12,726 nt of DNA, taken from the IMG/VR virus record IMGVR_UViG_3300014846_000084; one strand, written 5' to 3'. The position numbers were made by a program, and so were the translations under genes. This stretch comes from a virus. Taxonomy: Duplodnaviria; Heunggongvirae; Uroviricota; Caudoviricetes. A model generated the notes under the pieces. The model was not told the origin of the DNA, made no database searches, and was given only the letters and a program-made list of their open reading frames with translations. Shown here piece by piece: positions 1 through 12,726 of this stretch (its first letter is position 1; each line of letters starts with the position of its first letter).

Positions 1-1230
1 ATGAGCAGAGCACTTAACAAACTGAGCGATACACAGCTGAGGAAAATCAACGGCACACCCGCCCAAAAAACAGCCTTTCTTAATGACGGTGGAAACCTGA
101 GCGTCAGGCATTCAACCAGCGGCCTTTTAACCTGGTATTTCACCTACAGGGCCGGAACGGGAAGGGGAGCACGACCGGAACGGATTAAGCTGGGAAATTA
201 TCCTGATCTGAGTCTGAAAGCTGCCAGGGAAAAAGCGGCACAGTGTCGCGCTTGGCTTGCTGAGGGGAAAAATCCACGTCATGAGATGAATTACACCGTA
301 CAGAAAGCGTTAAAGCCCGTAACGGTTGGCGATGCGCTTACCTACTGGCTTGAGTCTTACGTAAAGGAAAACCGCGTGGATTATGCCGCCCTGAAAAAGC
401 GCCTTAATAATCACGTAATACAGCACATTGGTGCTATGCCGCTGGATAAATGCGAGCTACGGCACTGGCTGGCCTGTTTTGACCAGGTGGCAAAGCGAAC
501 GCCTGTTACTGCCGGATTCTTGCTACAGACGTGCAAACAGGCGCTTAAGTTCTGCCGGAGGCGGCGCTATGCAATCAGCAACGTTCTTGATGATATGAGT
601 GTGGCGGACGTTGGGAAAAAACCGGATATAAGCGAGCGTGTCTTAAGCACCAAAGAACTTGGCGAATTATTGCAGGCACTGGACAAAAAAATATTTTCCC
701 CTTACTACGTCGCACTAATCCGCCTCCTGATTGTTTTTGGATGCCGGACGGTAGAACTGAGGTTATCGGAGATCAGCGAGTGGGATTTTACCGAAATGCT
801 CTGGACCGTGCCGAAAGAACACAGCAAAACGAAGGTGGCAATATTCCGGCCCATACCGGAAGCAATACTGCCGTTCGTCACGCAGCTGGTGGAGCAGAAC
901 AGGCACACGGGCTTATTGCTGGGGGAAGTGAAACAGGAAACAAGCGTGTCGCAGTACGGCAGATTAGCGCACAGGAGGCTAAAACACCCTCACTGGTCAC
1001 TGCATGACATCCGGCGCACCTTTACAACGATGCTGAACGATTTAGGCGTGGATCCTCACGTCGTGGAGCAGCTTACAGGTCATCAGATGCCAGGGATGCA
1101 ACGAGTCTATAACCATTCCCGTTATCTGGATGCGAAACGTGACGCGCTGGATATGTGGACGGAGCGGTTAGGGATACTGGCGGGAACACATGAAAACGTA
1201 ACCACATTGCCAATAGCCAGAGAAATATAA
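1..1230 (+). CDS. int: Tyrosine site-specific integrase, P4-like family (409 aa)
   Basis: Full-length ORF from the track. C-terminal catalytic motifs are readable in the translation: R in GCRTVELRL, H-x-x-R in SLHDIRRTF, Y in QRVYNHSRY. N-terminal region resembles the arm-binding domain of P4-type integrases. Upstream start context is outside the window. Confidence 0.9.
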   Translation: MSRALNKLSDTQLRKINGTPAQKTAFLNDGGNLSVRHSTSGLLTWYFTYRAGTGRGARPERIKLGNYPDLSLKAAREKAAQCRAWLAEGKNPRHEMNYTVQKALKPVTVGDALTYWLESYVKENRVDYAALKKRLNNHVIQHIGAMPLDKCELRHWLACFDQVAKRTPVTAGFLLQTCKQALKFCRRRRYAISNVLDDMSVADVGKKPDISERVLSTKELGELLQALDKKIFSPYYVALIRLLIVFGCRTVELRLSEISEWDFTEMLWTVPKEHSKTKVAIFRPIPEAILPFVTQLVEQNRHTGLLLGEVKQETSVSQYGRLAHRRLKHPHWSLHDIRRTFTTMLNDLGVDPHVVEQLTGHQMPGMQRVYNHSRYLDAKRDALDMWTERLGILAGTHENVTTLPIAREI

Positions 1231-1595: not shown

Positions 1596-1784
1596 GTGTT
1601 AAGCACAGATCGCTTTATACGTGAAAAAGAATGTCAGCAACTTACAGGCCTGAGCCGCTCATGTCGGTACCGCCTGGAAAAAGCCGGACAATTCCCATCA
1701 CGGCGTAAGCTGGGCGGTCGTTCCGTTGGCTGGTCTTTATCCGAAGTTCTGGCATGGAAGGACAGCTGCGAGGCAGTTCACTAA
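1596..1784 (+). CDS. alpA: AlpA-family (Vis/excisionase-like) HTH transcriptional regulator, 62 aa, GTG start
   Basis: Translation LTGLSRSCRYRLEKAGQFP...GWSLSEVLAWK matches the AlpA/MerR-like winged HTH pattern. Strong SD (AAAGGGGGA) 5 to 8 nt upstream of the GTG at 1596. Confidence 0.85.
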   Translation: MLSTDRFIREKECQQLTGLSRSCRYRLEKAGQFPSRRKLGGRSVGWSLSEVLAWKDSCEAVH

Positions 1785-3047: not shown

Positions 3048-3248
3048 ATGGTTGCCGTAAATCATATACCACACCTTGTACACACACAAACGGCCTTTGT
3101 GTGGCGTTTTCTGGCACTGAGTGCCGGAGAATCTCAAATCATCCACGTAACCGCCTGGACGGAACGCGAAGCGCGTAGCCGTTGCCCGTCAGGTTGTGTT
3201 GCTGTATTTGCCGCTCGTATTCGTCAGGGGAAAACCTATGCACAATAA
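3048..3248 (+). CDS. Hypothetical small protein (66 aa), first gene of a coupled operon leading to the primase
   Basis: AGGAG SD at 3038-3042, 5 nt before the ATG. Stop overlaps the start of the next ORF. Confidence 0.5.
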   Translation: MVAVNHIPHLVHTQTAFVWRFLALSAGESQIIHVTAWTEREARSRCPSGCVAVFAARIRQGKTYAQ

Positions 3249-3477
3249 AACCACACCGGACGCAGCAGCCGCCGCGCTCACTACGCTGATGCACGCGCTT
3301 ATTGATATTTCTGTTATTGCTGACAGGGCGCATAAGCACGCCACCAGTGAAACAGAATATGCCGGGGCTTTCGTTCCTCATTCGCTGGCGGTTATGCAAC
3401 TTAGTGCGGATATGGCGCTGAATGAGGCCAAAGCCATCCTGATTGCTGATTGTGAAAATGGGGGGGGTTATGCGTGA
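3238..3477 (+). CDS. Hypothetical small protein (79 aa, MHNKTTPDAAAAALTT...)
   Basis: Track ORF 3196..3477 trimmed to the ATG at 3238, which overlaps the upstream stop and has AGGGGA upstream. Alanine/helix-rich, protein-like composition. Confidence 0.5.
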   Translation: MHNKTTPDAAAAALTTLMHALIDISVIADRAHKHATSETEYAGAFVPHSLAVMQLSADMALNEAKAILIADCENGGGYA

Positions 3478-3703
3478 TGATCGTTTTAATTCCCTGAAAC
3501 AGGAATTTTCCGACGTTCCTGATGATGCGGCTGATGCGCTTTCGTCAATGCCAGAGCTTATTAGAGCGGCTTTTTTCTTACTTTCCACGAGAGAATATAA
3601 ATCAACGGGGCTTGATGTACTGAATATCGCCGCCGATTATGCGGAATATGTGGCAGAGGCGCATTACAGAAGAAAATTTCCTGAGGATGTAAGCCATGCG
3701 TGA
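3470..3703 (+). CDS. Hypothetical small acidic protein (77 aa, MRDDRFNSLKQEF...)
   Basis: Track ORF 3443..3703 trimmed to the ATG at 3470, which overlaps the upstream stop in the motif ATGCGTGA. G-rich SD upstream. Confidence 0.55.
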   Translation: MRDDRFNSLKQEFSDVPDDAADALSSMPELIRAAFFLLSTREYKSTGLDVLNIAADYAEYVAEAHYRRKFPEDVSHA

Positions 3704-3934: not shown

Positions 3935-4234
3935 ATGAAACTTAAATATTCTGGCTTAACTGCCAGTGGCAACACTCACCCTAAATTTACGCGCGGTGAT
4001 ATTTACCGCGACCAGTACGGCGGCACGGTAATGATTAAGGGCGTGGAGGAACGTCGCGTAACTTACCGCCGTGAAGGCTACGAATATGATTGCGTGATGC
4101 CTGTTTATCAGTTCGACCGTGATTTTTCTCTTGTGCAGGCCGTACCGCGTAACGTGCCCACCAGCAGGGAGAAAGCACGCGCCAATATTCAGAAGATGAA
4201 AACCATGATTAACGGATTCAGGGGTAAAAAATGA
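3935..4234 (+). CDS. Hypothetical protein (99 aa), translationally coupled to the primase gene (ATGA overlap)
   Basis: Track ORF with GGAGA SD upstream. Its stop overlaps the primase ATG at 4231. Confidence 0.6.
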   Translation: MKLKYSGLTASGNTHPKFTRGDIYRDQYGGTVMIKGVEERRVTYRREGYEYDCVMPVYQFDRDFSLVQAVPRNVPTSREKARANIQKMKTMINGFRGKK

Positions 4235-5985
4235 AACTGGCACCGAACGTAAAACAGCAGTCACGCGGCATAAAACACAAAGAAACAGAAGTCATTATTT
4301 TTGCGGGTAGTGATGCCTGGTCACACGCAAAACAATGGCAGGAACATGACGCGCGTATGGCCGGAGATAATGAGCCTCCTGTGTGGCTTGGGGAGCAGCA
4401 GTTATCCGAACTGGATAAGCTGCAAATTGTGCCGGAAGGCAGAAAATGCGTACGAATATTCAGGGCCGGACATCTTGCGCCAGTAATGATAAAGGCGATT
4501 GGTCAGAAGCTGGCGGCGGCTGGCGTACAGGATGCAAATTTTTATCCTGAGGGTATGCACGGCCAGGAGGTGCAGAACTGGCGCGAATATCTGGCCCGTG
4601 AGCGACAGAATCTTTCTGATGGTCTGGTCATTGAGCTTCCGGTAAAGCAAAAGGCGCAACTTTCTCAGATGGCGGACAGTGAGCGCGCGCAGCTGCTTTC
4701 CGGGCGCTTTGATGGCGTTTGCGTGCATCCTGAAAGTGAAATCGTCCACGTCTGGCGCGGCGGGGGATGGTGTCCGGTCAGCACAATGGAACTGAGCCGC
4801 GAAATGGTGGCGATCTATTCAGAGCACAGGGCCACTTTCAGCAAGCGCGTAATCAATAACGCCGTGGAAGCGTTAAAAGTTATTGCCGAACCAATGGGCG
4901 AGCCGTCCGGTGATTTACTGCCGTTCGCCAATGGTGCGCTTGACCTGAAAACGGGGGAATTTTACCCGCACACGCCGGAGAACTGGATCACCACGCACAA
5001 CGGCATTGAGTACACGCCACCAGCACCAGGGGAGAACATCCGCGATAACGCGCCAAACTTTCATAAATGGCTTGAGCACGCAGCCGGAAAAGACCCGCGC
5101 AAGATGATGCGTATATGTGCCGCGCTGTACATGATTATGGCGAACCGGTACGACTGGCAGATGTTTATTGAGGCCACCGGAGATGGCGGGAGCGGTAAAA
5201 GTACATTCACGCACATAGCCAGCCTTCTGGCAGGGAAACAGAACACGGTAAGCGCTGAAATGACATCGCTTGATGATGCTGGTGGACGTGCGCAGGTTGT
5301 CGGGAGTCGTCTTATCGTCCTGGCTGACCAGCCGAAATATACAGGCGAAGGAACGGGCATCAAGAAAATCACGGGCGGTGACCCTGTGGAAATTAACCCG
5401 AAATACGAAAAGCGTTTCACGGCTGTAATCAGAGCGGTGGTGCTGGCGACCAACAATAACCCGATGATATTCACCGAACGGGCCGGAGGTGTGGCACGTC
5501 GTCGCGTGATTTTCCGTTTCGACAATATCGTCAGTGAGGCCGAAAAAGACAGGGAGCTACCGGAAAAGATTGCGGCTGAAATCCCTGTCATTATCCGCCG
5601 ATTGCTGGCGAACTTTACCGACCCTGAGAAGGCACGGGCTTTACTACTGGAACAGCGTGACGGTGATGAAGCTCTGGCAATAAAGCAACAGACGGATCCG
5701 GTTATTGAGTTTTGCCAGTTCCTGAATTTTCTGGAGGAAGCACGCGGCCTGATGATGGGCGGCGGTGGCGATTCAGTGAAGTACACGACCAGAAACAGCC
5801 TTTACCGCGTCTATCTGGCGTTTATGGCGTACGCAGGCAGGAGCAAACCGCTAAACGTAAATGACTTTGGCAAGGCTATGAAGCCAGCCGCGAAAGTTTA
5901 CGGACATGAATATATTACGCGGAAAGTTAAGGGAGTAACGCAGACTAACGCAATAACAACAGACGATTGCGACGCGTTTTTATAA
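4231..5985 (+). CDS. Phage/plasmid primase-helicase, P4 alpha-like (D5_N plus P-loop NTPase C-terminal region), 584 aa; probable replication initiator of the island
   Basis: Walker A reads EATGDGGSGKST and a Walker-B-like RLIVLADQ follows. Overall size and layout match P4-family primase C-terminal domain proteins. The iteron array starts directly after the stop. Confidence 0.88.
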   Translation: MKLAPNVKQQSRGIKHKETEVIIFAGSDAWSHAKQWQEHDARMAGDNEPPVWLGEQQLSELDKLQIVPEGRKCVRIFRAGHLAPVMIKAIGQKLAAAGVQDANFYPEGMHGQEVQNWREYLARERQNLSDGLVIELPVKQKAQLSQMADSERAQLLSGRFDGVCVHPESEIVHVWRGGGWCPVSTMELSREMVAIYSEHRATFSKRVINNAVEALKVIAEPMGEPSGDLLPFANGALDLKTGEFYPHTPENWITTHNGIEYTPPAPGENIRDNAPNFHKWLEHAAGKDPRKMMRICAALYMIMANRYDWQMFIEATGDGGSGKSTFTHIASLLAGKQNTVSAEMTSLDDAGGRAQVVGSRLIVLADQPKYTGEGTGIKKITGGDPVEINPKYEKRFTAVIRAVVLATNNNPMIFTERAGGVARRRVIFRFDNIVSEAEKDRELPEKIAAEIPVIIRRLLANFTDPEKARALLLEQRDGDEALAIKQQTDPVIEFCQFLNFLEEARGLMMGGGGDSVKYTTRNSLYRVYLAFMAYAGRSKPLNVNDFGKAMKPAAKVYGHEYITRKVKGVTQTNAITTDDCDAFL

Positions 5986-5997
5986 TTTGTTGCAATG

Positions 5998-6225
5998 GCT
6001 GTCTACCCTGTCTACCTGAGTAAAGAAAAATACATTTAATTCAGTACATTAACTTAGGTAGACAGCCTTTTTTCACTGTCTACCTACTATCTACCCTCTC
6101 TACCTGATTTTACCTGAATCAGACAGGGAGGTAGATACGGGGTAGATAGTGGATAAAAGCACTCTACCCTACTGAAAGCCGCGCCATTACTGGCATGGTG
6201 GCCAGTAAGGTAGATAAGGTAGACA
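5998..6225. repeat. Iteron array, candidate origin of replication: about 12 copies of GGTAGA(C/T)A / T(G)TCTACC in both orientations flanking an AT-rich spacer
   Basis: CTGTCTACC at 5999-6007, 6008-6016 and 6076-6084; GGTAGACAG at 6057-6065; TCTACC at 6090 and 6099; GGTAGATA at 6130, 6141 and 6209; GGTAGACA at 6218. AT-rich stretch at 6018-6056. Confidence 0.6.
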
Positions 6226-6273
6226 AGGGGAGGCACAACTCAAAACTTTTTAAACGAGGGGGTAAAAATAAAA

Positions 6274-6525
6274 ATGCGCACATCAGGAAAACTTAATAAT
6301 CAGAAGAAGCAGCATAACCGCGCCATTGACCTTACAGAGCACTGGCTGAGAGTGGCGATAAAAATCATCGACCGCAACACGGGGGAAGGATACGCGAAAG
6401 CACATCCCGACCTGATAAGCGCATTCATGACCACGGCGGCGGCAAACTTTGCCACGCTGACAGAACGGGAGATTGCCGAAGCGGAACAGGTAACAACCAT
6501 CAACGTTAAAAGCGCTGGAGAATAA
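6274..6525 (+). CDS. Hypothetical protein (83 aa)
   Basis: Track ORF. GAGGGGG SD at 6256-6262. Followed by an intrinsic terminator. Confidence 0.55.
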   Translation: MRTSGKLNNQKKQHNRAIDLTEHWLRVAIKIIDRNTGEGYAKAHPDLISAFMTTAAANFATLTEREIAEAEQVTTINVKSAGE

Positions 6526-6543
6526 CCGAAGAAGTGAGCACAT

Positions 6544-6568
6544 AGCCGGAGCAATCCGGCTTTTTTTC
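6544..6568 (+). terminator. Rho-independent terminator (AGCCGGA-gcaa-TCCGGCT followed by a T7 run)
   Basis: 7-bp GC-rich stem with a 4-nt loop and a run of seven T immediately after, 20 nt past the stop of the 6274 ORF. Confidence 0.6.
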
Positions 6569-6655
6569 GATCTCATATATCTTAAAAGATGGTTAATTAA
6601 TGATAATCTATCGAAAATACTGGTTATGTAATGATAAGTATCAGGAGAAAACAAA

Positions 6656-6850
6656 GTGGAAGAGATAAAGCAAAGCGCTACCGTGATGATTGATCATGAA
6701 ATCCTTAACGAGCTTAAAAAGTTGCAGTTCGATATTGTGCGCCGGATGAATGAATCAGGTATCTACGGCAGGGCGGCAACACCAACAATAGGGCATCTTG
6801 CGCGCGTACTGTTACGCGAACGCCTGGGCATTGCAACAAGTGAGGCGTAA
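6656..6850 (+). CDS. Hypothetical small protein (64 aa), GTG start; first gene of the putative late/packaging operon
   Basis: Track ORF. CAGGAG SD at about 6642. Preceded by an AT-rich promoter-like stretch at 6570-6650. Confidence 0.5.
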   Translation: MEEIKQSATVMIDHEILNELKKLQFDIVRRMNESGIYGRAATPTIGHLARVLLRERLGIATSEA

Positions 6851-6853
6851 ACA

Positions 6854-7015
6854 ATGGCTATCACAGAACGCGAGGCAAGCATCATTAAGGCCATTGGCGA
6901 GGAAACAAGAGACACCATAGCGCCATTGATGGAAAAGATCGCAGAGCTTGAGACACGAATAAACAAGCTGAGTAATGAAGTTGAAGGCCTGATCTCGTTA
7001 CTCGGTGAGCAATGA
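6854..7015 (+). CDS. Small predicted coiled-coil protein (53 aa, MAITEREASIIKAIGEETRDTIAPLMEKIAELETRINKLSNEVEGLISLLGEQ); absent from the ORF track, which appears to omit ORFs under 60 aa
   Basis: Translated by hand. ATG lies 4 nt after the upstream stop, with a GAGG about 9 nt upstream. Heptad-like charged/hydrophobic pattern. Confidence 0.4.
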   Translation: MAITEREASIIKAIGEETRDTIAPLMEKIAELETRINKLSNEVEGLISLLGEQ

Positions 7016-7143
7016 CATGGGGGGGAGTGTTCCGGCCGGAAAGTCGATCTCCCTGGACACCGCCCCCCGTCTCATTCGTAGAAAATTTTGCTTTTCAAAA
7101 AAGTTACACGAAAAGTTACACCCCCTCAAAACGAGGTTTTTGC

Positions 7144-7632
7144 ATGGCATTAACGACCAAAAAAAAGCGGTTTGCTGATGCGTTATCAAGGGGCGCAAAT
7201 CCCACGGAAGCCGCTATACATGCGGGATACAGCGAAAAGACCGCAAGGGTTAAAGGCTGGCAGCTATCCAACGATCCTGAGGTGAAAAAGTATCTTAAGG
7301 CTGTAACTCCTGATGTAACTTTTCAGGTTACAAAACCGAAAAAAGTTACAAAGAAAGTTACCGAAAAAGTTACACCGGAACGGGCATCAATTAACACCAT
7401 TGAGATGATGGATAACGGCCTACCCGACCCCATCAAAGCAATGGGCAGGATACTGATTGACAACATGGACACAGATCCAAAACTGGCTTTAGATGCCGCG
7501 TTTAAGCTGGCCCAGTTCACCCACCGCAAGATCGGCAGCATTGGGAAAAAAGAGGTTAAAAAACTCAATGCCGCTAGTGTCTCCTCAAATCGGTTCCCCA
7601 TCCCTAAGCCACCAACAGGCTTAAAACACTGA
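7144..7632 (+). CDS. terS: Terminase small subunit (TerS, Terminase_2-like), 162 aa
   Basis: Track ORF 7012..7632 trimmed to the internal ATG at 7144, which has a GAGG SD. N-terminus FADALSRGANPTEAAIHAGYSEKTARVKGWQLSNDPEV matches the conserved TerS HTH signature (AGYS..TA). The upstream 44 codons of the track ORF are GC-rich, structured, non-coding-looking sequence. Confidence 0.8.
   Translation: MALTTKKKRFADALSRGANPTEAAIHAGYSEKTARVKGWQLSNDPEVKKYLKAVTPDVTFQVTKPKKVTKKVTEKVTPERASINTIEMMDNGLPDPIKAMGRILIDNMDTDPKLALDAAFKLAQFTHRKIGSIGKKEVKKLNAASVSSNRFPIPKPPTGLKH
7303..7375. repeat. Cluster of six GTTAC/GTAAC pentamer-containing repeats spaced about 12 bp apart inside terS (encoding the repetitive KVT linker); candidate pac/TerS recognition site
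   Basis: GTAAC at 7303 and 7315; GTTAC at 7328, 7345, 7357 and 7369. Two further AAAAGTTACAC copies lie just upstream of the terS start (GTTACAC at 7103-7109 and 7115-7121). Confidence 0.45.
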
Positions 7633-7643
7633 GGTAGCGAACT

Positions 7644-7805
7644 ATGAGCGAATACATCACAGACCCTATTGATGTACTCACGGAAATCATGAACGACAAG
7701 CAGCAGTCGACCGAAATACGGTTACAGGCCGCCGCTATTCTGATGCCATATTTTCACGAAACACTAAACCCGTGCTTCCAAGAGGAGGAAGAAGATGATC
7801 TGTAA
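7644..7805 (+). CDS. Small acidic protein (53 aa, MSEYITDPIDVLTEIMNDKQQSTEIRLQAAAILMPYFHETLNPCFQEEEEDDL); absent from the ORF track
   Basis: Translated by hand. ATG at 7644 lies 11 nt after the terS stop, with a GAGG about 9 nt upstream. Its 3' end overlaps the start of the capsid-like gene by 11 nt. Confidence 0.4.
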   Translation: MSEYITDPIDVLTEIMNDKQQSTEIRLQAAAILMPYFHETLNPCFQEEEEDDL

Positions 7806-8718
7806 AAACATGAAAGGCGTGTCAGCAGTTCGCGCCGCCAGCGTGCTGGCATCGTGTAAATTTAGCCATGCTGACGCTATAGAGATGACGAAAAGAAATG
7901 ATCCGGCAGTATCGTTATTTCTTGAAAAATCCGTAGTAGCAGGAATGAACACGGATAACATGCCGTCGCTGGTGGCAGAGCCGATAGTAAGAGAGCTTGG
8001 CGAGTATATTTTTTCGCAGTCTGTACCAGGCAAGCTAATCAGCAGCGCGCTAAATCTTCCGTTTGGCGCAAAATTGCAGTCAATATCAGGCAAGGGTAGT
8101 AAATGGCTTAAAGAGGCCGAAGAAATCCCAGTCAAAGAGGGAGAAGTAAACGAAAGCGCGCTAAAACTGTGCAAACTCGGCGCTATTGTGATGCTGAATA
8201 ACGAGCTAATCAAATTTAGCACCCCTGGTACCAATTCAGCGATCAGAGACTTGATCACATCGGAATCGGTGAAAGAAATAGATAAAAAATTTCTTTCCAG
8301 TGACCAGGAGGTGGCTGGCGTATCCCCTGAGGGCGTGCTTAATGGTGCTGATGAGGCCGAAAACTTCATAGAGCTTTTCAAAAAGCACATAGCGAACGGT
8401 AACACGCTTGCCACGTCGTCGCTAATCTTGCCCGTAGAAAACGCCTTACAGCTTACTGATGCTGAGTTCTGGCAGATAGAGCTTTTGAGAATACCGGTAA
8501 TTGTGAGCGAACAGGCGGATCTCATGATGCTGATAGACGCTAAAAAGCTGATTATTAACGTTGAAGCCACGGTTATAACCCCAACTGATGAGGCGGTAAT
8601 AAAAACCGAATCAGGGACGGTTAGCCTTTTCCAGAATGACGCTACAGCGTTCATGGCAATCACCTATTGCGGATGGCAAAAACTCGATAAGGCCGTCACC
8701 GTTCTGGCGAAAAGCTGA
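7795..8718 (+). CDS. HK97-fold major capsid protein homolog (307 aa), putative; possibly a capsid-redirecting MCP paralog given the absence of other head genes
   Basis: AGGAGG SD 7 nt upstream of the ATG. The overall pattern, especially the C-terminal region (LRIPVIVSEQADLMMLIDAKKLIINVEATVITPT...SLFQNDATAFMAITYCGWQ), resembles HK97-type major capsid proteins. Assignment is by eye only. Confidence 0.55.
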   Translation: MICKNMKGVSAVRAASVLASCKFSHADAIEMTKRNDPAVSLFLEKSVVAGMNTDNMPSLVAEPIVRELGEYIFSQSVPGKLISSALNLPFGAKLQSISGKGSKWLKEAEEIPVKEGEVNESALKLCKLGAIVMLNNELIKFSTPGTNSAIRDLITSESVKEIDKKFLSSDQEVAGVSPEGVLNGADEAENFIELFKKHIANGNTLATSSLILPVENALQLTDAEFWQIELLRIPVIVSEQADLMMLIDAKKLIINVEATVITPTDEAVIKTESGTVSLFQNDATAFMAITYCGWQKLDKAVTVLAKS

Positions 8719-8732
8719 TTTTTCCGGCATCA

Positions 8733-8762
8733 ATCCCGATATGGTGATCCCCATATCGGGAT
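8733..8762. other. Perfect 12-bp inverted repeat hairpin (ATCCCGATATGG-tgatcc-CCATATCGGGAT) 15 nt after the capsid-like gene stop; possible weak terminator, RNA element or protein-binding site
   Basis: Arms at 8733-8744 and 8751-8762 are exact reverse complements. Followed by AT-rich sequence but not a clean T-run. Confidence 0.4.
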
Positions 8763-8805
8763 AATTACGAAATTTTCGCAGTTTAATAGCTGACCAGGTG
8801 GAGAA

Positions 8806-9087
8806 ATGACAGAAGCCGAAATACTGGGATTAATCCGCCGCGTTGCCGGAATCAGCAAGCAGGCCGACGAACAGGCCACGCAGCCGGACAGCGTGACCGC
8901 CGAAAATTATGTGCGTGTTGTTGCTGAGGTGATGCGCCGTGATGGTATCCAGCTTAATGATGTGGATATGCGCAACATACGGATCCGCGTTCTTGAAATG
9001 CTGGCCTACAATCGCCGCGTTGAACTGTATCGGGAGAAAGAAAAAATTACGTACCACTGGAAGAAGCCGGAGCGGTTACGGCGTTAA
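8806..9087 (+). CDS. Hypothetical protein (93 aa), last gene of the island
   Basis: Track ORF. AGGTGGAG SD at 8796-8803. Balanced, protein-like composition. Confidence 0.55.
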   Translation: MTEAEILGLIRRVAGISKQADEQATQPDSVTAENYVRVVAEVMRRDGIQLNDVDMRNIRIRVLEMLAYNRRVELYREKEKITYHWKKPERLRR

Positions 9088-9093
9088 CGAGTA

Positions 9094-9138
9094 GTGACAT
9101 ACCGTGACGGAGAGTGACAACCAGTGACACAACGTGAC
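9094..9138. repeat. Tandem array of five phased 10-bp repeats (GTGAC every 10 bp; consensus nnnGTGACAn) at the island terminus
   Basis: GTGAC at 9094, 9104, 9114, 9124 and 9134. Contains the octamer GACACAAC (9126-9133), which also occurs at 1275-1282 and 1536-1543. Confidence 0.6.
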
Positions 9139-9390
9139 AAAAAGACGGTATTTAAACAGGGGGAGTATTTAATACCCCTCCCACCAGCCTGATTAACATT
9201 TAACCGGAAAAAAAATCCGGTACCATGATGGCAGACGCTAGGGCAATCATTGCTGAAATTGCACACTTTTTAAGCAAATCATTTTAGTTATACGTTTGGT
9301 TATACGATTTAAAAGTTGAATCAAGCATATTTATTAAAATCATGTAGTTACACGCTAAATTAAACTACTCTCGTGCCAAAAATCCCAAGA

Positions 9391-9419
9391 AAAAACCAAC
9401 CCTTACGGTTGGTTTTTTT
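9391..9419. terminator. Bidirectional intrinsic terminator (AACCAACC-cttac-GGTTGGTT flanked by an A-run and a T-run); serves the convergent autotransporter gene and probably the island's rightward transcripts
   Basis: Perfect 8-bp stem (9394-9401 / 9407-9414) with a 5-nt loop, a T7 run on the + strand and an A-run upstream that gives a T-run on the minus strand. Lies about 60 nt past the autotransporter stop. Confidence 0.7.
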
Positions 9420-9480
9420 ATATCTGCAATTAATTCGATAAACAGACCGTGACACATCACAGCCTGTTTATTTTCTGTTA

Positions 9481-12072
9481 TCAGAACGTCCAGACCACAC
9501 CCGCCTGAGTATTCCACGGCGATTCTACCCCTGCGCCATTGCCATAGCTGACTGACAAATGACCGCTTAACGTCGGGGTAAACGATGACCTTATACCAGC
9601 CTGATAAACGCCACTGGTTCCAGCCACATCATTATTAAATTTGCCATCGTCATTAACTTTCACCTGGTTAGAATCGGCGTATTCCTGACGCACGGCCGCT
9701 TTCAGCCAGGGTTCCAGCGTCGTACCGTTTTGCAGGTCCATGTGATAGCTTACCGCCGTTCCCGCTTCAGCGCGTAATATCCGGGTATTTCCCACATCCG
9801 CGCGCATGCCGTTTGATAACGTGTAGTCCTGACCATCTGTGGTAAAGCCGGTAAAGGCCAGATAGGGTCTAACACTCCACAATCCGTCAACCCAACGGAA
9901 CCCGCTCTCAACATGAGCACCCGCGCCGTTACTATTGTAATCGCCAAACGCTGTTGCCCCATTACTCATCTTGCCATGGATGGTGTTGGCAAAACGGTCA
10001 ACTTTCACCACCCCATCAACATAGGCACCGTTCTGATGCTCCCAACCGGCATAAGCCCCCAGGGTATAGCTATCGATATTACCTTTGCCGCCGCGATCAA
10101 AACCAATATCAGAATGAGAGTAACCAAAGATCAAGCCGCGAATTGTACTGCTTTCTTCACGGGAGAAACGGCTATCGATACCGAGCGTCAGGCCCGTCAA
10201 TGTTTGCTCAAAACCAGCTCCCGCATCAGTGGTCACGTTGTTGCGGGTGTTAATTGCCGAACTCCACATCGCCGTATCGTAACTAACGCCTTTTACGCTA
10301 CCAAGACGCTCACGCACGGTGTCCAGTTCTGCATCAAATACCAGCGGTTGTGCGGCCGCCATATTCAGCACATCAGTGGTTGAAGGGGTAATTTGCGCGC
10401 GATTCTCTGCCAGACTCCAGCTATGGTTGCCATTATCCAGCAAGGTATATTCATACGTACCGATATCAACAACGCCTCCGGCATTGCCCAACGTAAATGC
10501 AGCATCACCGCCGCCCGTTGTTACCAGTGTAAGGCTATCTCCTGCTGCCGGGCTGGCACCGGTGTCCGTCACGAATATTTTGAAATCACCTGTTGCCTGA
10601 CCGGTGACGTTGAGCTGATCGCTCTGATGATTAGCCATATCGGTACGCATATAAAAATTGCCGTTTCCCGACAGGGTATTGGTGGTCAACGTAATGAAAT
10701 TTTCCGCACTTGCCGTCACTGATGAACGAGTCACTGGCTCATCCATCATAATCACATTTGCGTCAGACATCGCAAGGTTGGCTAAGTTGAGGAGGGTGTT
10801 TTGGTTCGTCGTAGTGATATCGGCAATGATGGTCCATACGCTATTTTCGAGCGAAACGTCCGCTTTGCTGGTATCCACGGCACCATTCGTTCTAAAAGAA
10901 GCGCCCTCAGAAACCACTACCTTACCCACCAACATTGCGGGTGCATAATTTATTTGCGGCTTCATGACCTCAAGAATGCCATCATTCCCTCTGACTGAAA
11001 CGTTAACCATTGTGCCAGCCCAGACGTTAGCGCGGCCATTGTTGATAACCATATTTTCAGAGATGGCTTTTGAGGAATACGTGATACTTCCATTCTGATA
11101 TGATCGACCGAGATCATATACCGCATTTGCCTGCACTTTCGTACCAGTATCCTTTCCCAGCGATTGCATAGTGGCATGCTTATCAAGGATAGTATCAATG
11201 GCCTGCGTGTCCTCCATAACAATGAGCCCGGAACCATCATCCAGTTCATAATTTTTTGACACACCATCTTTTATACTAAATTGGCCTTTACTGTTTGGAC
11301 CACTCACTTCCAGCGCATTCGTTGAGACAATTAATTTTCCGCCTGCTTTTTTATCAACGCCAGTTACAGTCCCGCCATCCATAACCTCCAGTAAGCCGCC
11401 ACTATCTACAGTGGTATTATAAGCGAAGTCATTTTCTTCAACTCGCAAACTTCCGCCGTTTTCCAACAACATATTATTAGCAATACCATTCTTGATATCG
11501 AACTGACCGAGACGGTTTGTTCCGAATACCTCCATGGCCCGCGTGGTTGTTTTAATAGCACCGCCTGCTTTCTGATCTACCGCAAATGCAAATCCCCCCT
11601 CTTTAACCTCCAGTAGTCCTCCCTTTTCGATAGCGACAAAGACGGCCCCCCCATCTTTTTCAACGATTAAGCGCCCGCCTTTAATCGTGGTATCATTCGC
11701 TGCGCCATAAACCTGTAGCACACCATTATTGAGCGTAGTCTGGTTTGCCGCGCCACCCATTTGAACAATTTGATAACCGTCATTTAATACTGAGTATTCT
11801 GCGGCGCCATTCATTTCAATGTACTGATACCCTCCGTTAATTTCAGTATTATTACTTACACCAAATTCTTTTATATGCTGTTCTCCGCCAGGATTGATTT
11901 TCGTATTATTGGCGGTCCCATAAACCAGCTGGATATCTTTTTCCAGGACAACACCATCAACTGTCTCACCATACTCAACAGTTGATGCCAATGCTATGGG
12001 TGAATATAACGCTGTAGCCACCAGAACAGATATTGCGGAACGACAAAGAGAAACAGAACCAGATTGATGCAT
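9481..12072 (-). CDS. AIDA-I-type (type Va) autotransporter adhesin, 863 aa, with signal peptide, repeat-rich passenger and C-terminal beta-barrel translocator
   Basis: N-terminal signal-peptide-like segment (LCRSAISVLVATALYSPIALAST). Passenger region has recurring glycine-rich repeats (e.g. NTKINPGGEQ, NTEINGGYQY, IVEKDGGAVF, LEVKEGGFAF). C-terminal about 280 aa has alternating aromatic/hydrophobic beta-strand pattern and ends ...AGVVWTF, typical of autotransporter beta-domains. Confidence 0.88.
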   Translation of the reverse strand: MHQSGSVSLCRSAISVLVATALYSPIALASTVEYGETVDGVVLEKDIQLVYGTANNTKINPGGEQHIKEFGVSNNTEINGGYQYIEMNGAAEYSVLNDGYQIVQMGGAANQTTLNNGVLQVYGAANDTTIKGGRLIVEKDGGAVFVAIEKGGLLEVKEGGFAFAVDQKAGGAIKTTTRAMEVFGTNRLGQFDIKNGIANNMLLENGGSLRVEENDFAYNTTVDSGGLLEVMDGGTVTGVDKKAGGKLIVSTNALEVSGPNSKGQFSIKDGVSKNYELDDGSGLIVMEDTQAIDTILDKHATMQSLGKDTGTKVQANAVYDLGRSYQNGSITYSSKAISENMVINNGRANVWAGTMVNVSVRGNDGILEVMKPQINYAPAMLVGKVVVSEGASFRTNGAVDTSKADVSLENSVWTIIADITTTNQNTLLNLANLAMSDANVIMMDEPVTRSSVTASAENFITLTTNTLSGNGNFYMRTDMANHQSDQLNVTGQATGDFKIFVTDTGASPAAGDSLTLVTTGGGDAAFTLGNAGGVVDIGTYEYTLLDNGNHSWSLAENRAQITPSTTDVLNMAAAQPLVFDAELDTVRERLGSVKGVSYDTAMWSSAINTRNNVTTDAGAGFEQTLTGLTLGIDSRFSREESSTIRGLIFGYSHSDIGFDRGGKGNIDSYTLGAYAGWEHQNGAYVDGVVKVDRFANTIHGKMSNGATAFGDYNSNGAGAHVESGFRWVDGLWSVRPYLAFTGFTTDGQDYTLSNGMRADVGNTRILRAEAGTAVSYHMDLQNGTTLEPWLKAAVRQEYADSNQVKVNDDGKFNNDVAGTSGVYQAGIRSSFTPTLSGHLSVSYGNGAGVESPWNTQAGVVWTF

Positions 12073-12269: not shown

Positions 12270-12726
12270 TAGACTGGCCCCCTGAATCTCCAGACAACCA
12301 ATATCACTTAAATAAGTGATAGTCTTAATACTAGTTTTTAGACTAGTCATTGGAGAACAGATGATTGATGTCTTAGGGCCGGAGAAACGCAGACGGCGTA
12401 CCACACAGGAAAAGATCGCAATTGTTCAGCAGAGCTTTGAACCGGGGATGACGGTCTCCCTCGTTGCCCGGCAACATGGTGTAGCAGCCAGCCAGTTATT
12501 TCTCTGGCGTAAGCAATACCAGGAAGGAAGTCTTACTGCTGTCGCCGCCGGAGAACAGGTTGTTCCTGCCTCTGAACTTGCTGCCGCCATGAAGCAGATT
12601 AAAGAACTCCAGCGCCTGCTCGGCAAGAAAACGATGGAAAATGAACTCCTCAAAGAAGCCGTTGAATATGGACGGGCAAAAAAGTGGATAAAGCACGCGC
12701 CCTTATTGCCCGGGGATGGGGAGTAA
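12270..12726 (+). mobile_element. IS2 (IS3 family) insertion sequence, left end only; IRL begins about 12270 and the element continues beyond the window
   Basis: Sequence from about 12270 (TAGACTGGCCCCCTGAATCTCCAGACAACC...) matches my recollection of the IS2 left inverted repeat, and the downstream ORF matches IS2 orfA. Recognised from memory, not from a search. Confidence 0.8.
12361..12726 (+). CDS. insC: IS2 transposase OrfA (InsC-like HTH protein), 121 aa
   Basis: Track ORF 12316..12726 trimmed to the ATG at 12361, which has a GGAGAACAG SD-like sequence upstream. Translation [40 protein letters not shown]... is the IS2/IS3-family OrfA as I recall it. Confidence 0.88.

What the first reader, a model, noticed from the sequence alone, without database searches (positions are those of the whole stretch)
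7795..8718. Satellite-encoded HK97-like capsid homolog with no other head genes (candidate capsid redirection)
A single major-capsid-like gene sits directly downstream of terS, with no portal, protease or scaffold. In some staphylococcal islands a capsid homolog co-assembles with helper capsid protein to change capsid size or shape. A similar role here would be a distinct hijacking mechanism. Alternatively this may be a decoy or interference protein.
Basis: inference. Interest (0 to 1): 0.6.

Follow-up and report, generated by a model that had tools for sequence, protein, structure and literature searches.

The report
Phage satellite's truncated capsid-protein copy
A small E. coli phage satellite (a PICI next to tRNA-Pro) carries its own shortened copy of a phage head-shell protein and no other head genes; this is a known but functionally untested feature of such satellites, and here it probably lets the satellite tamper with head assembly of Shiga-toxin-type helper phages.

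Summary

It lies in a ~9.6-kb int-alpA-primase-terS island at tRNA-Pro. No portal, protease, scaffold or terL was found. A 53-aa gene separates it from terS.

Its relatives (40-80% identity, several Enterobacterales genera) all sit in 8.4-9.7-kb satellites, some embedded in prophage late genes. All lack the first ~70 residues of the scaffolding (delta) domain and the protease that candidate helper capsid proteins carry.

The island's terS (47%) and a cos-like site point to HNH-terS-terL-protease::capsid lambdoid phages, including Stx-converting phages, as helpers.

The capsid-redirection idea is plausible but untested. It is already the standing hypothesis for Gram-negative PICIs, where "capsid morphogenesis" is a SatelliteFinder core component. 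The only tested E. coli case (EcCICFT073 c1499) belongs to an unrelated lambda gpE family and had no phenotype.

Verdict: new member of a known kind, moderate interest.

The parts
7795..8718 (+). Capsid-like gene (307 aa): HK97-fold major capsid protein paralog with only the C-terminal ~60 residues of the delta/scaffold region and no protease domain
   Evidence: family and fold; N-terminus aligns to about residue 71 of a 431-aa helper-type MCP; dN/dS 0.15-0.33; 220 of 5426 genomes, all full-length
7783..7788 (+). Shine-Dalgarno AGGAGG, 6 nt before the ATG at 7795, inside the end of the upstream 53-aa ORF (translational coupling)
   Evidence: read directly from the sequence
7644..7805 (+). 53-aa 'mini-TerS': matches only the central helical segment of Terminase_2-type TerS, with no HTH and no C-terminal tail. 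Conserved immediately upstream of the capsid-like gene in all terS-bearing relatives
   Evidence: phrog_641 positions 89-125, E 4.4e-7; hhalign 97% probability, E 5e-11; conserved in L001/L002, L003, L020, L027
7144..7632 (+). Satellite small terminase (162 aa; the ORF list starts it at 7012, RefSeq at the equivalent of 7144)
   Evidence: PF03592, 41 bits; phrog_641, E 3e-43; 47% identical to the TerS of Stx-converting phages
7020..7085 (+). cos-like non-coding segment (G-run ... ACACCGCCCCCCGTCTCA) homologous to the HNH-terS spacer of the candidate helper phages
   Evidence: 74% over 66 nt, E 4e-8; the only non-coding match between the window and the 15-kb helper locus; motif also upstream of terS in Serratia and Arsenophonus satellites; the phage Lys8385Vzw record begins and ends inside this motif
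7099..7121 (+). Two direct AAAAGTTACAC repeats just upstream of terS; candidate satellite-specific TerS binding sites (inferred)
   Evidence: the helper has GTTAAC repeats at the same place instead
7302..7375 (.). Cluster of further GTTAC/GTAAC repeats in both orientations inside terS
   Evidence: D1, D9, D10, I1-I3
8733..8762 (.). Perfect-centre 15+15 nt palindrome 15 nt after the stop codon of the capsid-like gene (possible terminator or binding site; not followed by a T-run)
   Evidence: I4; not called as a terminator
8806..9087 (+). Last island gene, 93 aa, function unknown (phrog_1561)
9368..9377 (+). attR core: duplicate of the 3' end of tRNA-Pro (proL). The sequence from 9376 onward is identical to the empty K-12 site, so yejO (9481-12072, minus strand) is chromosomal
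9285..9354 (+). Three TAGTTATACG-like repeats next to attR; four copies flank attL in the ZH48 island. Probable integrase or AlpA arm-type sites (inferred)
1..1230 (+). Tyrosine integrase (left end of the island; attL lies just outside the window)
1596..1784 (+). AlpA-family regulator
   Evidence: PF05930, 65.8 bits
4231..5985 (+). Primase/replicase (D5_N, DUF5906, Pox_D5)

Best explanation
This is the 'capsid morphogenesis' gene of a Gram-negative phage-inducible chromosomal island (PICI). The island is about 9.6 kb and is integrated at the 3' end of tRNA-Pro (proL).

Shown: the protein is an HK97-fold paralog of the capsid protein of its likely helpers, which are lambdoid phages with the late-gene order HNH-terS-terL-protease::capsid fusion-portal, including many Stx-converting phages. 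It is stripped of the protease and of the first ~70 residues of the scaffolding (delta) region. It keeps the conserved C-terminal part of that region and the whole shell-forming body.

Inferred mechanism:
1. The gene is expressed with the satellite terS and a 53-aa mini-TerS from one tightly coupled gene string after the helper induces the island.
2. Lacking scaffold, protease and portal of its own, the protein cannot build a head alone.
3. It enters procapsids nucleated by the helper's protease::capsid protein, possibly at the vertices as Ccm does.
4. Carrying far less internal scaffold mass, it shifts assembly toward heads too small for the ~50-58-kb helper but fit for the cos-delimited ~9-10-kb satellite.
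5. The satellite TerS directs helper TerL/HNH to the satellite's own cos.
For: Shown:
- HK97 fold and PF05065 membership.
- Purifying selection and intact copies in 220 genomes.
- PICI architecture with no other head genes, bounded by the tRNA-Pro att site.
- In the nine relative contexts examined (plus the identical ZH48 copy), every close relative sits in an int-regulator-replication island or at its right end. No other head genes were found. The seven fully captured islands span 8.4-9.7 kb and two are cut by contig ends; four islands lie inside prophage late-gene clusters.
- The 16 closest 50%-identity clusters are 133-349 aa; the full-length ones start at their N-termini. More distant relatives are 450-470-aa (delta-bearing) or ~650-aa (protease-fused) proteins that match only through their C-terminal ~300 residues. 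Where context was checked, these lie in real phage head modules.
- The N-terminus aligns to about residue 71 of a helper-type 431-aa MCP, with a shared conserved motif.
- Helper link: terS is 47% identical, the cos-like spacer is homologous, and the closest E. coli phage MCPs are all in the same Stx-type phages.
- The helper-type gene is present in 1252 of 5426 genomes. O157:H7 PV15-279 carries both partners.

Precedent:
- Ccm, an HK97-fold CP homolog of a cos-type SaPI with HNH-type helpers, forms the pentamers of small T=4 capsids (PMC8569155).
- PmCI172 makes small capsids and carries a capsid homolog (PMC6092414).
Against: - No experiment or computation here shows co-assembly or a size change.
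- The only tested E. coli PICI capsid homolog (c1499 of EcCICFT073) affected neither interference nor transfer, and that island is packaged in full-size heads (PMC6092414). It belongs to an unrelated family.
- Identity to candidate helper MCPs is only 22-25%, so compatibility at capsomer interfaces is not guaranteed.
- Unlike Ccm, the delta domain is truncated, which could just as well make the protein a poison subunit.
- Five or six copies of a 9.6-kb concatemer would also fill a normal head, so small heads are not required.
- The two terS-encoding E. coli PICIs tested in 2018 (IHE3034, 18098) were not mobilised by resident prophages.
Confidence: 0.45

Rival explanations
1. Interference-only poison subunit or decoy. 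The delta-truncated, protease-less paralog joins helper capsomers and blocks or misdirects procapsid assembly or maturation. This lowers helper yield (host or satellite defence) without producing functional small heads. The island is packaged as multimers in the normal-size heads that still form.
For: Truncating the scaffolding region and losing the protease is the classic design of a dominant-negative subunit. The neighbouring mini-TerS looks like a second truncated assembly-protein paralog. EcCICFT073 is packaged in phage-size heads (PMC6092414).
Against: The narrow 8.4-9.7-kb size of all seven fully captured islands that carry the gene, despite different replication and cargo modules, hints at a packaging-size constraint. 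A satellite that needs helper heads gains little from simply destroying them. Ccm and PmCI172 point to size change.
Confidence: 0.25
2. Semi-autonomous satellite capsid. The protein self-assembles, as encapsulins do without a scaffold, into a small shell. It borrows only the portal, protease, terminase and tail from the helper, making the island an intermediate between classical PICIs and capsid-forming PICIs.
For: Encapsulins, which assemble without delta domains, are among the best structural matches. The family is an old, satellite-restricted lineage only 22-25% identical to helper MCPs and with no nucleotide similarity to them, unlike terS/cos.
Against: No portal, protease, connector or terL is present in any of the islands examined. 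A shell must still accept a foreign portal. Published phylogenies separate PICI capsid genes from cf-PICI capsid genes (PMC10085698). Ccm alone forms no capsids (PMC8569155).
Confidence: 0.1
3. Backup copy. The gene replaces a helper capsid gene that the satellite itself interrupts when it integrates inside prophage late genes, as proposed for helper-embedded PICIs.
For: A relative (P0005) lies in a satellite inserted exactly at the protease/capsid junction of a prophage gene. The idea appears in PMC10111431.
Against: The window island sits at tRNA-Pro, not in a prophage. The protein is only 22% identical to the interrupted MCP and lacks its protease and half its delta region. The same gene occurs in satellites inserted in terL or tail genes and in chromosomal sites.
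Confidence: 0.05
4. Decaying remnant of a captured phage head module, with no present function.
For: The island shows some decay elsewhere: a split phrog_2512 homolog and a Bro/Ant-like fragment.
Against: dN/dS is 0.15-0.33 with no stop codons in 10 variants. All 220 genomes carry full-length copies. The protein is conserved at 40-80% identity across genera in the same position, with a strong SD site and translational coupling.
Confidence: 0.03

Closest known systems
Ccm (cos capsid morphogenesis protein) of SaPIbov5, Staphylococcus aureus
   Different: Ccm (355 aa) keeps a full delta domain, is cleaved by the helper protease, and converts prolate heads to isometric T=4 heads by forming the pentamers. 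The window protein (307 aa) lacks the N-terminal half of the delta region. Its helpers probably make isometric heads from a protease::capsid fusion, and the island also has its own terS, which SaPIbov5 lacks. There is no detectable sequence relationship beyond the shared fold.
'Capsid morphogenesis' core component of Proteobacterial PICIs (SatelliteFinder; Fillol-Salom 2018 GN-PICIs)
   Same: The island architecture matches exactly: int, alpA, pri-rep, capsid homolog and terS, with no other structural or lysis genes (PMC10085698; PMC10111431, reports a capsid gene in 21 of 29 reference GN-PICIs).
   Different: That category is defined by annotation and its function is only 'thought to' be capsid modification. 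The points established here for this HK97/PF05065 lineage were not found in the papers read: delta truncation, satellite-only distribution, linkage to mini-TerS, and Stx-type helpers.
EcCICFT073 c1499 (capsid) and c1500 (decoration) genes
   Same: A capsid homolog near the right end of an E. coli PICI that shares the family of its helper's (lambda/phi80) capsid protein.
   Different: c1499 belongs to the lambda gpE family (PF03864), is full length, is paired with a gpD-like decoration gene, and shows no sequence similarity to the window protein. Its deletion had no effect on interference or transfer, and that island uses Rpp rather than TerS (PMC6092414, PMC6739421).
PmCI172 capsid-like protein (Pasteurella multocida PICI)
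   Same: A Gram-negative PICI with a single capsid homolog. It produces small isometric heads (PMC6092414; PMC6893505).
   Different: The helper is a Mu-like myovirus. The gene's role was never tested, and its relationship to this family was not examined here.
Capsid-forming PICIs (cf-PICIs, e.g. EcCIEDL933, EcCI2)
   Different: cf-PICIs also encode portal, protease, head-tail adaptors and connectors, and terL, and build complete heads. None of these is present here.
T4 gp24 vertex protein
   Different: It is encoded by the phage itself, not by a parasite. It serves only as an analogy for a possible vertex role.

Membership tests
HK97-like major capsid protein family (Pfam PF05065 Phage_capsid) | Sequence score above the curated family threshold | tested here: met
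   28.1 bits against a cutoff of 24.2, covering profile positions 47-274 of 280. A family profile finds 938 proteins at E<=1e-10.
HK97-like major capsid protein family (Pfam PF05065 Phage_capsid) | HK97 fold (A and P domains, spine helix, E-loop) | tested here: met
HK97-like major capsid protein family (Pfam PF05065 Phage_capsid) | Full N-terminal delta (scaffolding) domain or fused protease, as in HK97-type phages that lack a separate scaffold | tested here: not met
   The protein starts at the equivalent of about residue 71 of a 431-aa helper-type MCP and about residue 290 of the 645-aa fusion. Only about 60 residues precede the position equivalent to the mature N-terminus.
HK97-like major capsid protein family (Pfam PF05065 Phage_capsid) | Chainmail cross-link residues (HK97 K169, N356, E363). 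Typical of HK97 itself but not required for family membership. | tested here: not met
   K169 and E363 equivalents are absent in 0 of 28 satellite-type proteins having them (I/V and I/V/T instead), against 75 and 76 of 133 related phage proteins. The N356 equivalent is mostly kept, and is D in the window protein. This is not satellite-specific: the E. coli helper candidate has R/G/E.
Gram-negative PICI (Fillol-Salom 2018; SatelliteFinder PICI model) | Integrase, AlpA-type regulator, primase-replicase, terS and capsid-morphogenesis gene, co-oriented | tested here: met
   int 1-1230, alpA 1596-1784, pri 4231-5985, terS 7144-7632, capsid-like 7795-8718, all on the + strand.
Gram-negative PICI (Fillol-Salom 2018; SatelliteFinder PICI model) | No other phage structural or lysis genes; small size (about 10-20 kb or less); own att site | tested here: met
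   No such genes found, apart from one weak (E 0.005) portal-family match of a 53-aa ORF. The island is about 9.6 kb, running from the tRNA-Pro 3' end to attR at 9368-9377, with the empty site seen in K-12.
Gram-negative PICI (Fillol-Salom 2018; SatelliteFinder PICI model) | Induction, replication, packaging and high-frequency transfer by a helper phage | not testable with these tools
   Only indirect evidence: a helper-like cos segment and terS, and co-residence with helper-type prophages in O157:H7 PV15-279.
Ccm-like capsid size/shape redirection proteins | Satellite-encoded HK97-fold homolog of the helper's capsid protein | tested here: met
   22-25% identity to helper-type MCPs over about 300 residues. 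Structurally similar to Ccm.
Ccm-like capsid size/shape redirection proteins | Delta domain present and removed by the helper protease | tested here: inconclusive
   Only the C-terminal part of the delta region is present. A cleavage site could not be placed: two alignments put the HK97 S104 equivalent at residue 59 or 64.
Ccm-like capsid size/shape redirection proteins | Incorporated into capsids (at pentamers) and necessary and sufficient for small capsids | not testable with these tools
   Requires EM, mass spectrometry and genetics.
Capsid-forming PICI (cf-PICI) | Portal, protease, head-tail adaptor/connector and terL encoded by the island | tested here: not met
   None is present in the window island or in the related islands examined.

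The most novel reading that the evidence does not exclude
The satellite carries a cassette of two 'amputated' paralogs of helper assembly proteins. One is a TerS reduced to its oligomerisation helices. The other is a capsid protein stripped of protease and scaffold.

Together they would re-programme Stx-type lambdoid phages. The mini-TerS would poison or re-target the helper terminase. The capsid paralog would either form the shell of a very small (T=3-like, ~10-kb) head largely by itself around the helper portal, or force the helper protein into such a head.

That would be a new size-redirection mechanism for isometric HK97-type phages. It would also be a natural antagonist of Shiga-toxin phage spread.
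Probability: 0.12. Interest if true: 0.7.

Novelty: new member of a known kind. Interest (0 to 1): 0.4.

Why it matters
How Gram-negative PICIs use their very common capsid homologs is still open. The one knockout done so far (EcCICFT073) had no phenotype, and the one island known to make small heads (PmCI172) could not be manipulated genetically.

This lineage offers a tractable E. coli case:
- a defined candidate helper type (HNH-terS-terL-protease::capsid lambdoid phages, many Stx-converting, present in 23% of complete E. coli genomes);
- a clear structural peculiarity, loss of the protease and half of the scaffold domain;
- a tight 8.4-9.7-kb island size that suggests small heads.

If the gene does redirect or poison head assembly, these satellites would limit the production and spread of Shiga-toxin phages in STEC. 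That bears on pathogen evolution and on satellite-based delivery tools. If it does nothing, as with c1499, the widespread retention of capsid genes in PICIs needs another explanation.

Tried and rejected
1. The single-sequence and alignment word-index searches returned only 7 and 18 proteins. Breadth came from the full HMMER scan.

2. The genome-contig scan recovered one locus that was already known. These were useful for dN/dS but not for diversity.

3. I first took a 13-bp repeat, TTTTAGTTATACG, as the att core. I rejected this after comparison with the empty K-12 site. The junction is the tRNA-Pro 3' end at 9368-9377, and the repeat is a flanking arm-type motif.

4. I considered the invariant K45 ('LEK|S') as the maturation cleavage site. 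I dropped the idea because two alignments place the HK97 K103|S104 equivalent at residues 59 or 64, not 45.

5. I considered loss of the chainmail cross-link residues as a satellite-specific adaptation. I rejected this because about 40% of related phage MCPs, and the E. coli helper candidate itself, also lack them.

6. Pairwise BLASTP between the 53-aa protein and either TerS found nothing. Only profile methods show the relationship.

7. I tested whether the published negative result for c1499 applies here. It does not, because c1499 belongs to an unrelated family.

8. The promoter scan found no sigma-70-like sites in 5900-9500, and no canonical terminator after the gene.

9. Five literature searches found no experimental work on this HK97-type PICI capsid homolog.
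Full report
**1. The observation**

Bases 7795-8718 on the + strand form a 307-aa ORF. AGGAGG at 7783-7788 lies 6 nt before the ATG. The same CDS is annotated in RefSeq as 'phage major capsid protein' (WP_088548802.1) in E. coli ZH48, with zero nucleotide differences.

The protein passes Pfam's curated threshold for PF05065 Phage_capsid (28.1 bits against 24.2). It also matches PHROG 'major head protein' families 617 and 10. An AlphaFold2 model built from 18 family sequences has mean pLDDT 74 and pTM 0.76. Its structural neighbours are exclusively HK97-fold shell proteins:
- Foldseek gives probability 1.00 for its best-ranked hits.

Against ten E. coli variants (94-98% identical), dN/dS is 0.15-0.33 and none has a stop codon. 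The gene is present, always full length and at least 95% identical, in 220 of 5426 complete E. coli genomes. The long antisense ORF 7764-8663 is a shadow of this gene.

**2. The setting**

The window holds the following co-oriented genes:
- int (1-1230)
- alpA (1596-1784)
- a DUF4222 gene (3935-4234)
- a D5-type primase (4231-5985)
- three small ORFs
- a Terminase_2 small terminase (7144-7632)
- a 53-aa ORF (7644-7805)
- the capsid-like gene (7795-8718)
- a 93-aa ORF (8806-9087)

Apart from one weak (E 0.005) portal-family match of the 53-aa ORF at 6854-7015, no ORF matches portal, protease, scaffold, terL, connector, tail or lysis families.

In strain ZH48 a mosaic relative sits between tRNA-Pro (proL) and yejO. 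It has a different replication module but an identical packaging module. Comparison with the empty K-12 site puts the right junction at a duplicate of the tRNA 3' end, window 9368-9377. Downstream of that point the window is identical to K-12. The autotransporter (9481-12072, minus strand) and the IS2 fragment are therefore chromosomal.

The island is about 9.6 kb. It has exactly the five core components of the SatelliteFinder PICI model: integrase, AlpA, primase-replicase, capsid morphogenesis and terS (PMC10085698).

One correction to the finding: the capsid-like gene is not directly downstream of terS. The 53-aa ORF lies between them and overlaps the capsid-like gene by 11 nt.

**3. Anatomy of the protein**

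A full HMMER scan of 1.84 billion representative proteins with a family profile gave 16 clusters at E<=1e-30. These are 133-349 aa, and all but one 133-aa fragment are 315-349 aa and align from their own N-termini. More distant hits are mostly one of two kinds:
- 450-470-aa proteins matched from about residue 100;
- about 650-aa proteins matched from about residue 300. These are protease-capsid fusions.

In a joint alignment, the satellite proteins begin at about residue 71 of a 431-aa helper-type capsid protein. They lack its N-terminal, coiled-coil-like part. They share a conserved segment with it:
- satellite: KG.sA.RAA..LA....DA.E.T..NDP.VS..LEK
- helper: KGIGFARFAKALAAAGGSRSEALEIAKKQYPND..HHVLK

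Two alignments place the equivalent of the HK97 mature N-terminus (S104) at residue 59 or 64. About 60 residues of 'delta remnant' therefore precede the shell-forming body, against about 130 in the helper-type protein, which in E. coli helpers also carries a 215-residue protease. I could not place a maturation cleavage site.

The HK97 cross-link lysine and catalytic glutamate equivalents are present in none of 28 satellite-type proteins. They are also absent from about 40% of related phage proteins, and the lysine and asparagine are absent from the E. coli helper candidate. I give this no weight.

**4. Where the family lives**

I examined nine independent genomic contexts of relatives (40-52% identical), plus the E. 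coli copies. Each was an int-AlpA/HTH-replication island or its right end, with the capsid-like gene at or next to that end and no other head gene. In the seven contexts captured in full the island is 8.4-9.7 kb; two are cut by contig ends.
- Serratia aquatilis
- Arsenophonus nasoniae
- Klebsiella aerogenes and Serratia marcescens, both at the fis locus
- a contig holding only the right end of a fis-locus island
- a contig that begins at the capsid-like gene
- a metagenomic island with a DUF927 primase
- two tandem islands in one contig

Four of these islands are embedded in prophage late regions:
- one in the terL gene;
- one exactly at the junction of a protease::capsid gene, giving fragments of 224 + 431 aa against 645 aa when intact;
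- one between head-completion and tail genes.
This is the 'helper-embedded PICI' configuration described in PMC10111431.

By contrast, a distant 475-aa relative lies in an ordinary terL-protease-capsid-portal phage module. The short, delta-truncated form thus appears to be a satellite-restricted lineage.

**5. The likely helper**

Three independent signals converge on one phage type.
- The satellite TerS is 47% identical over its whole length to the TerS of Stx1a-, Stx2a- and Stx2c-converting phages and related E. coli prophages.
- Among E. coli phages, the closest homologs of the capsid-like protein (22%, covering 93% of it) are the protease::capsid fusions of those same phages.
- The only non-coding similarity between the window and a 15-kb helper late region is 66 nt just upstream of terS (7020-7085, 74% identity, E 4e-8). 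It matches the helper's HNH-terS spacer.

That third motif is a G-run followed by ACACCGCCCCCC(C/G)TCTCA. It recurs upstream of terS in the Serratia and Arsenophonus satellites. The GenBank record of phage Lys8385Vzw begins and ends inside it. That fits, but does not prove, the idea that it is the cos cleavage site.

Next to the motif the helper has five GTTAAC repeats. The satellite instead has AAAAGTTACAC repeats (7099-7121), with more GTTAC copies inside terS. By inference, the cleavage site is shared while the TerS recognition sites are private.

The helper late-gene order is HNH-terS-terL-protease::capsid-portal, the same as in the prophage that hosts the embedded satellites. The helper-type capsid gene occurs in 1252 of 5426 complete E. 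coli genomes, with up to seven copies per genome. O157:H7 strain PV15-279 carries both partners.

**6. How it most likely works**

Shown:
- The protein is a conserved, selected HK97-fold paralog.
- It lacks the protease and half of the scaffold region.
- It is found only in satellites that have no other head genes.
- It is tightly coupled to the packaging genes.
- These satellites share a cos-like site and a related terS with a defined helper type.

Inferred:
- The protein cannot build heads alone and acts by entering helper procapsids.
- Each satellite subunit brings about 285 fewer internal residues than a helper subunit, so incorporation should alter the internal scaffold core that sets curvature. 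A vertex role, as for Ccm or T4 gp24, is a natural possibility.
- The narrow 8.4-9.7-kb island size, kept despite swapped replication and cargo modules, hints at a head sized for one cos-to-cos monomer. Helper records are 48-58 kb.
- By rough scaling from the P2/P4 and 80alpha/SaPI1 pairs (my own knowledge), a T=3-like shell would fit better than T=4. This is speculation.

I put the size-redirection reading at about 0.45. The alternatives are:
- a poison or interference-only role, about 0.25;
- a largely self-built small shell, about 0.10;
- a backup copy for interrupted helper genes, about 0.05;
- a dead relic, about 0.03.
The rest is unassigned.

**7. Comparison with what is known**

Capsid homologs in Gram-negative PICIs are well documented.
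- They occur in 21 of 29 reference elements (PMC10111431).
- They are a core component in SatelliteFinder (PMC10085698).
- They have been suggested to act like Ccm (PMC6893505).

The only genetic test used EcCICFT073 c1499 and c1500, and found no effect on lambda interference or on transfer (PMC6092414). I retrieved that locus. c1499 is a full-length lambda gpE-family protein (PF03864, 174 bits) paired with a gpD-like decoration protein, and it shows no similarity to the window protein. Each PICI thus carries a capsid paralog of its own helper's family, and the negative result does not transfer directly.

The closest mechanistic analogue is Ccm. It is a cos-type satellite protein with HNH-type helpers and an HK97-fold paralog that forms the pentamers of T=4 heads (PMC8569155). 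But Ccm keeps its delta domain, is cleaved, and turns prolate heads into isometric ones.

The island fails every defining test for a cf-PICI.

**8. Verdict**

This is a new, uncharacterised member (an HK97/PF05065-type, delta-truncated lineage) of a known kind of satellite gene.

What this analysis adds:
- the delta/protease truncation;
- the satellite-only distribution;
- identification of Stx-type HNH-cos lambdoid phages as probable helpers;
- the shared cos-like site with private repeats;
- the constant island size;
- the conserved mini-TerS neighbour.

Interest is moderate (0.4). The function of PICI capsid homologs is a real open question that this system could answer, but the feature itself is expected and already annotated.

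Noticed in passing
window 7644-7805 (+): The 53-aa ORF is a 'mini-TerS'. Profile methods align it to the central helices of Terminase_2 small terminases (hhalign 97%, E 5e-11; phrog_641 positions 89-125). It lacks the N-terminal HTH and the C-terminal tail and ends in an acidic tail. It is conserved immediately before the capsid-like gene in every terS-bearing relative and is absent from the fis-locus satellites that lack terS. It may be a terminase-interfering or terminase-retargeting factor, functionally like Ppi or Rpp.
   Followed up: partly
window 7020-7085, and 7099-7121 / 7302-7375: A cos-like 66-nt segment is shared with the HNH-terS spacer of Stx-type phages, and the Lys8385Vzw genome record starts and ends inside the motif. 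It is followed by satellite-specific GTTAC(A) repeats where the helper has GTTAAC repeats. Several of the satellite repeats lie inside terS, where they encode a repetitive KVT peptide.
   Followed up: partly
L001 1877-11149 and L002 1528-10969 (same contig, ENA ERZ15232907 NODE_13): Two related satellites sit in tandem inside one prophage late region. One interrupts terL. The other splits a protease::capsid fusion gene exactly at the protease/delta junction (224 + 431 aa against 645 aa when intact). Each also carries an unannotated 763-800-aa protein that is also found in the fis-locus satellites.
   Followed up: partly
window 9093-9142 and 9285-9354: Five GTGAC(A) repeats occur at roughly 10-nt phasing just after the last island gene. 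Three TAGTTATACG-like repeats lie next to attR, and the latter motif occurs four times (two direct, two inverted) between attL and int in the ZH48 island. These are probably integrase or AlpA arm-type sites.
   Followed up: partly
window 3196-3703 and 1837-2100: A phrog_2512 homolog is split into two overlapping ORFs (profile positions 1-76 and 72-154), which indicates a frameshift. The 400-aa ORF at 1837-3039 matches Ant/Bro-type anti-repressors only over residues about 50-84 and otherwise looks non-coding. The early region of this island copy may be partly decayed.
   Followed up: no
window 8733-8762: A 15+15-nt palindrome (ATCCCGATATGGTGA/TCCCCATATCGGGAT) lies 15 nt after the capsid-like stop codon. 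It has no T-run, so it may be a protein-binding site rather than an intrinsic terminator.
   Followed up: no
window 9481-12072 (-) and 12316-12726 (+): The chromosomal yejO autotransporter appears intact here (863 aa), whereas it is a pseudogene in K-12 and ZH48. It is followed by the start of an IS2-like orfA.
   Followed up: no
phage records ON170149.1, ON170171.1, ON170322.1 (Ralstonia 'phages' of 12.9-13.4 kb): Very small 'phage' records hit by the capsid-like protein (25% identity over 87% of it). Their size suggests they may be satellites rather than phages.
   Followed up: no
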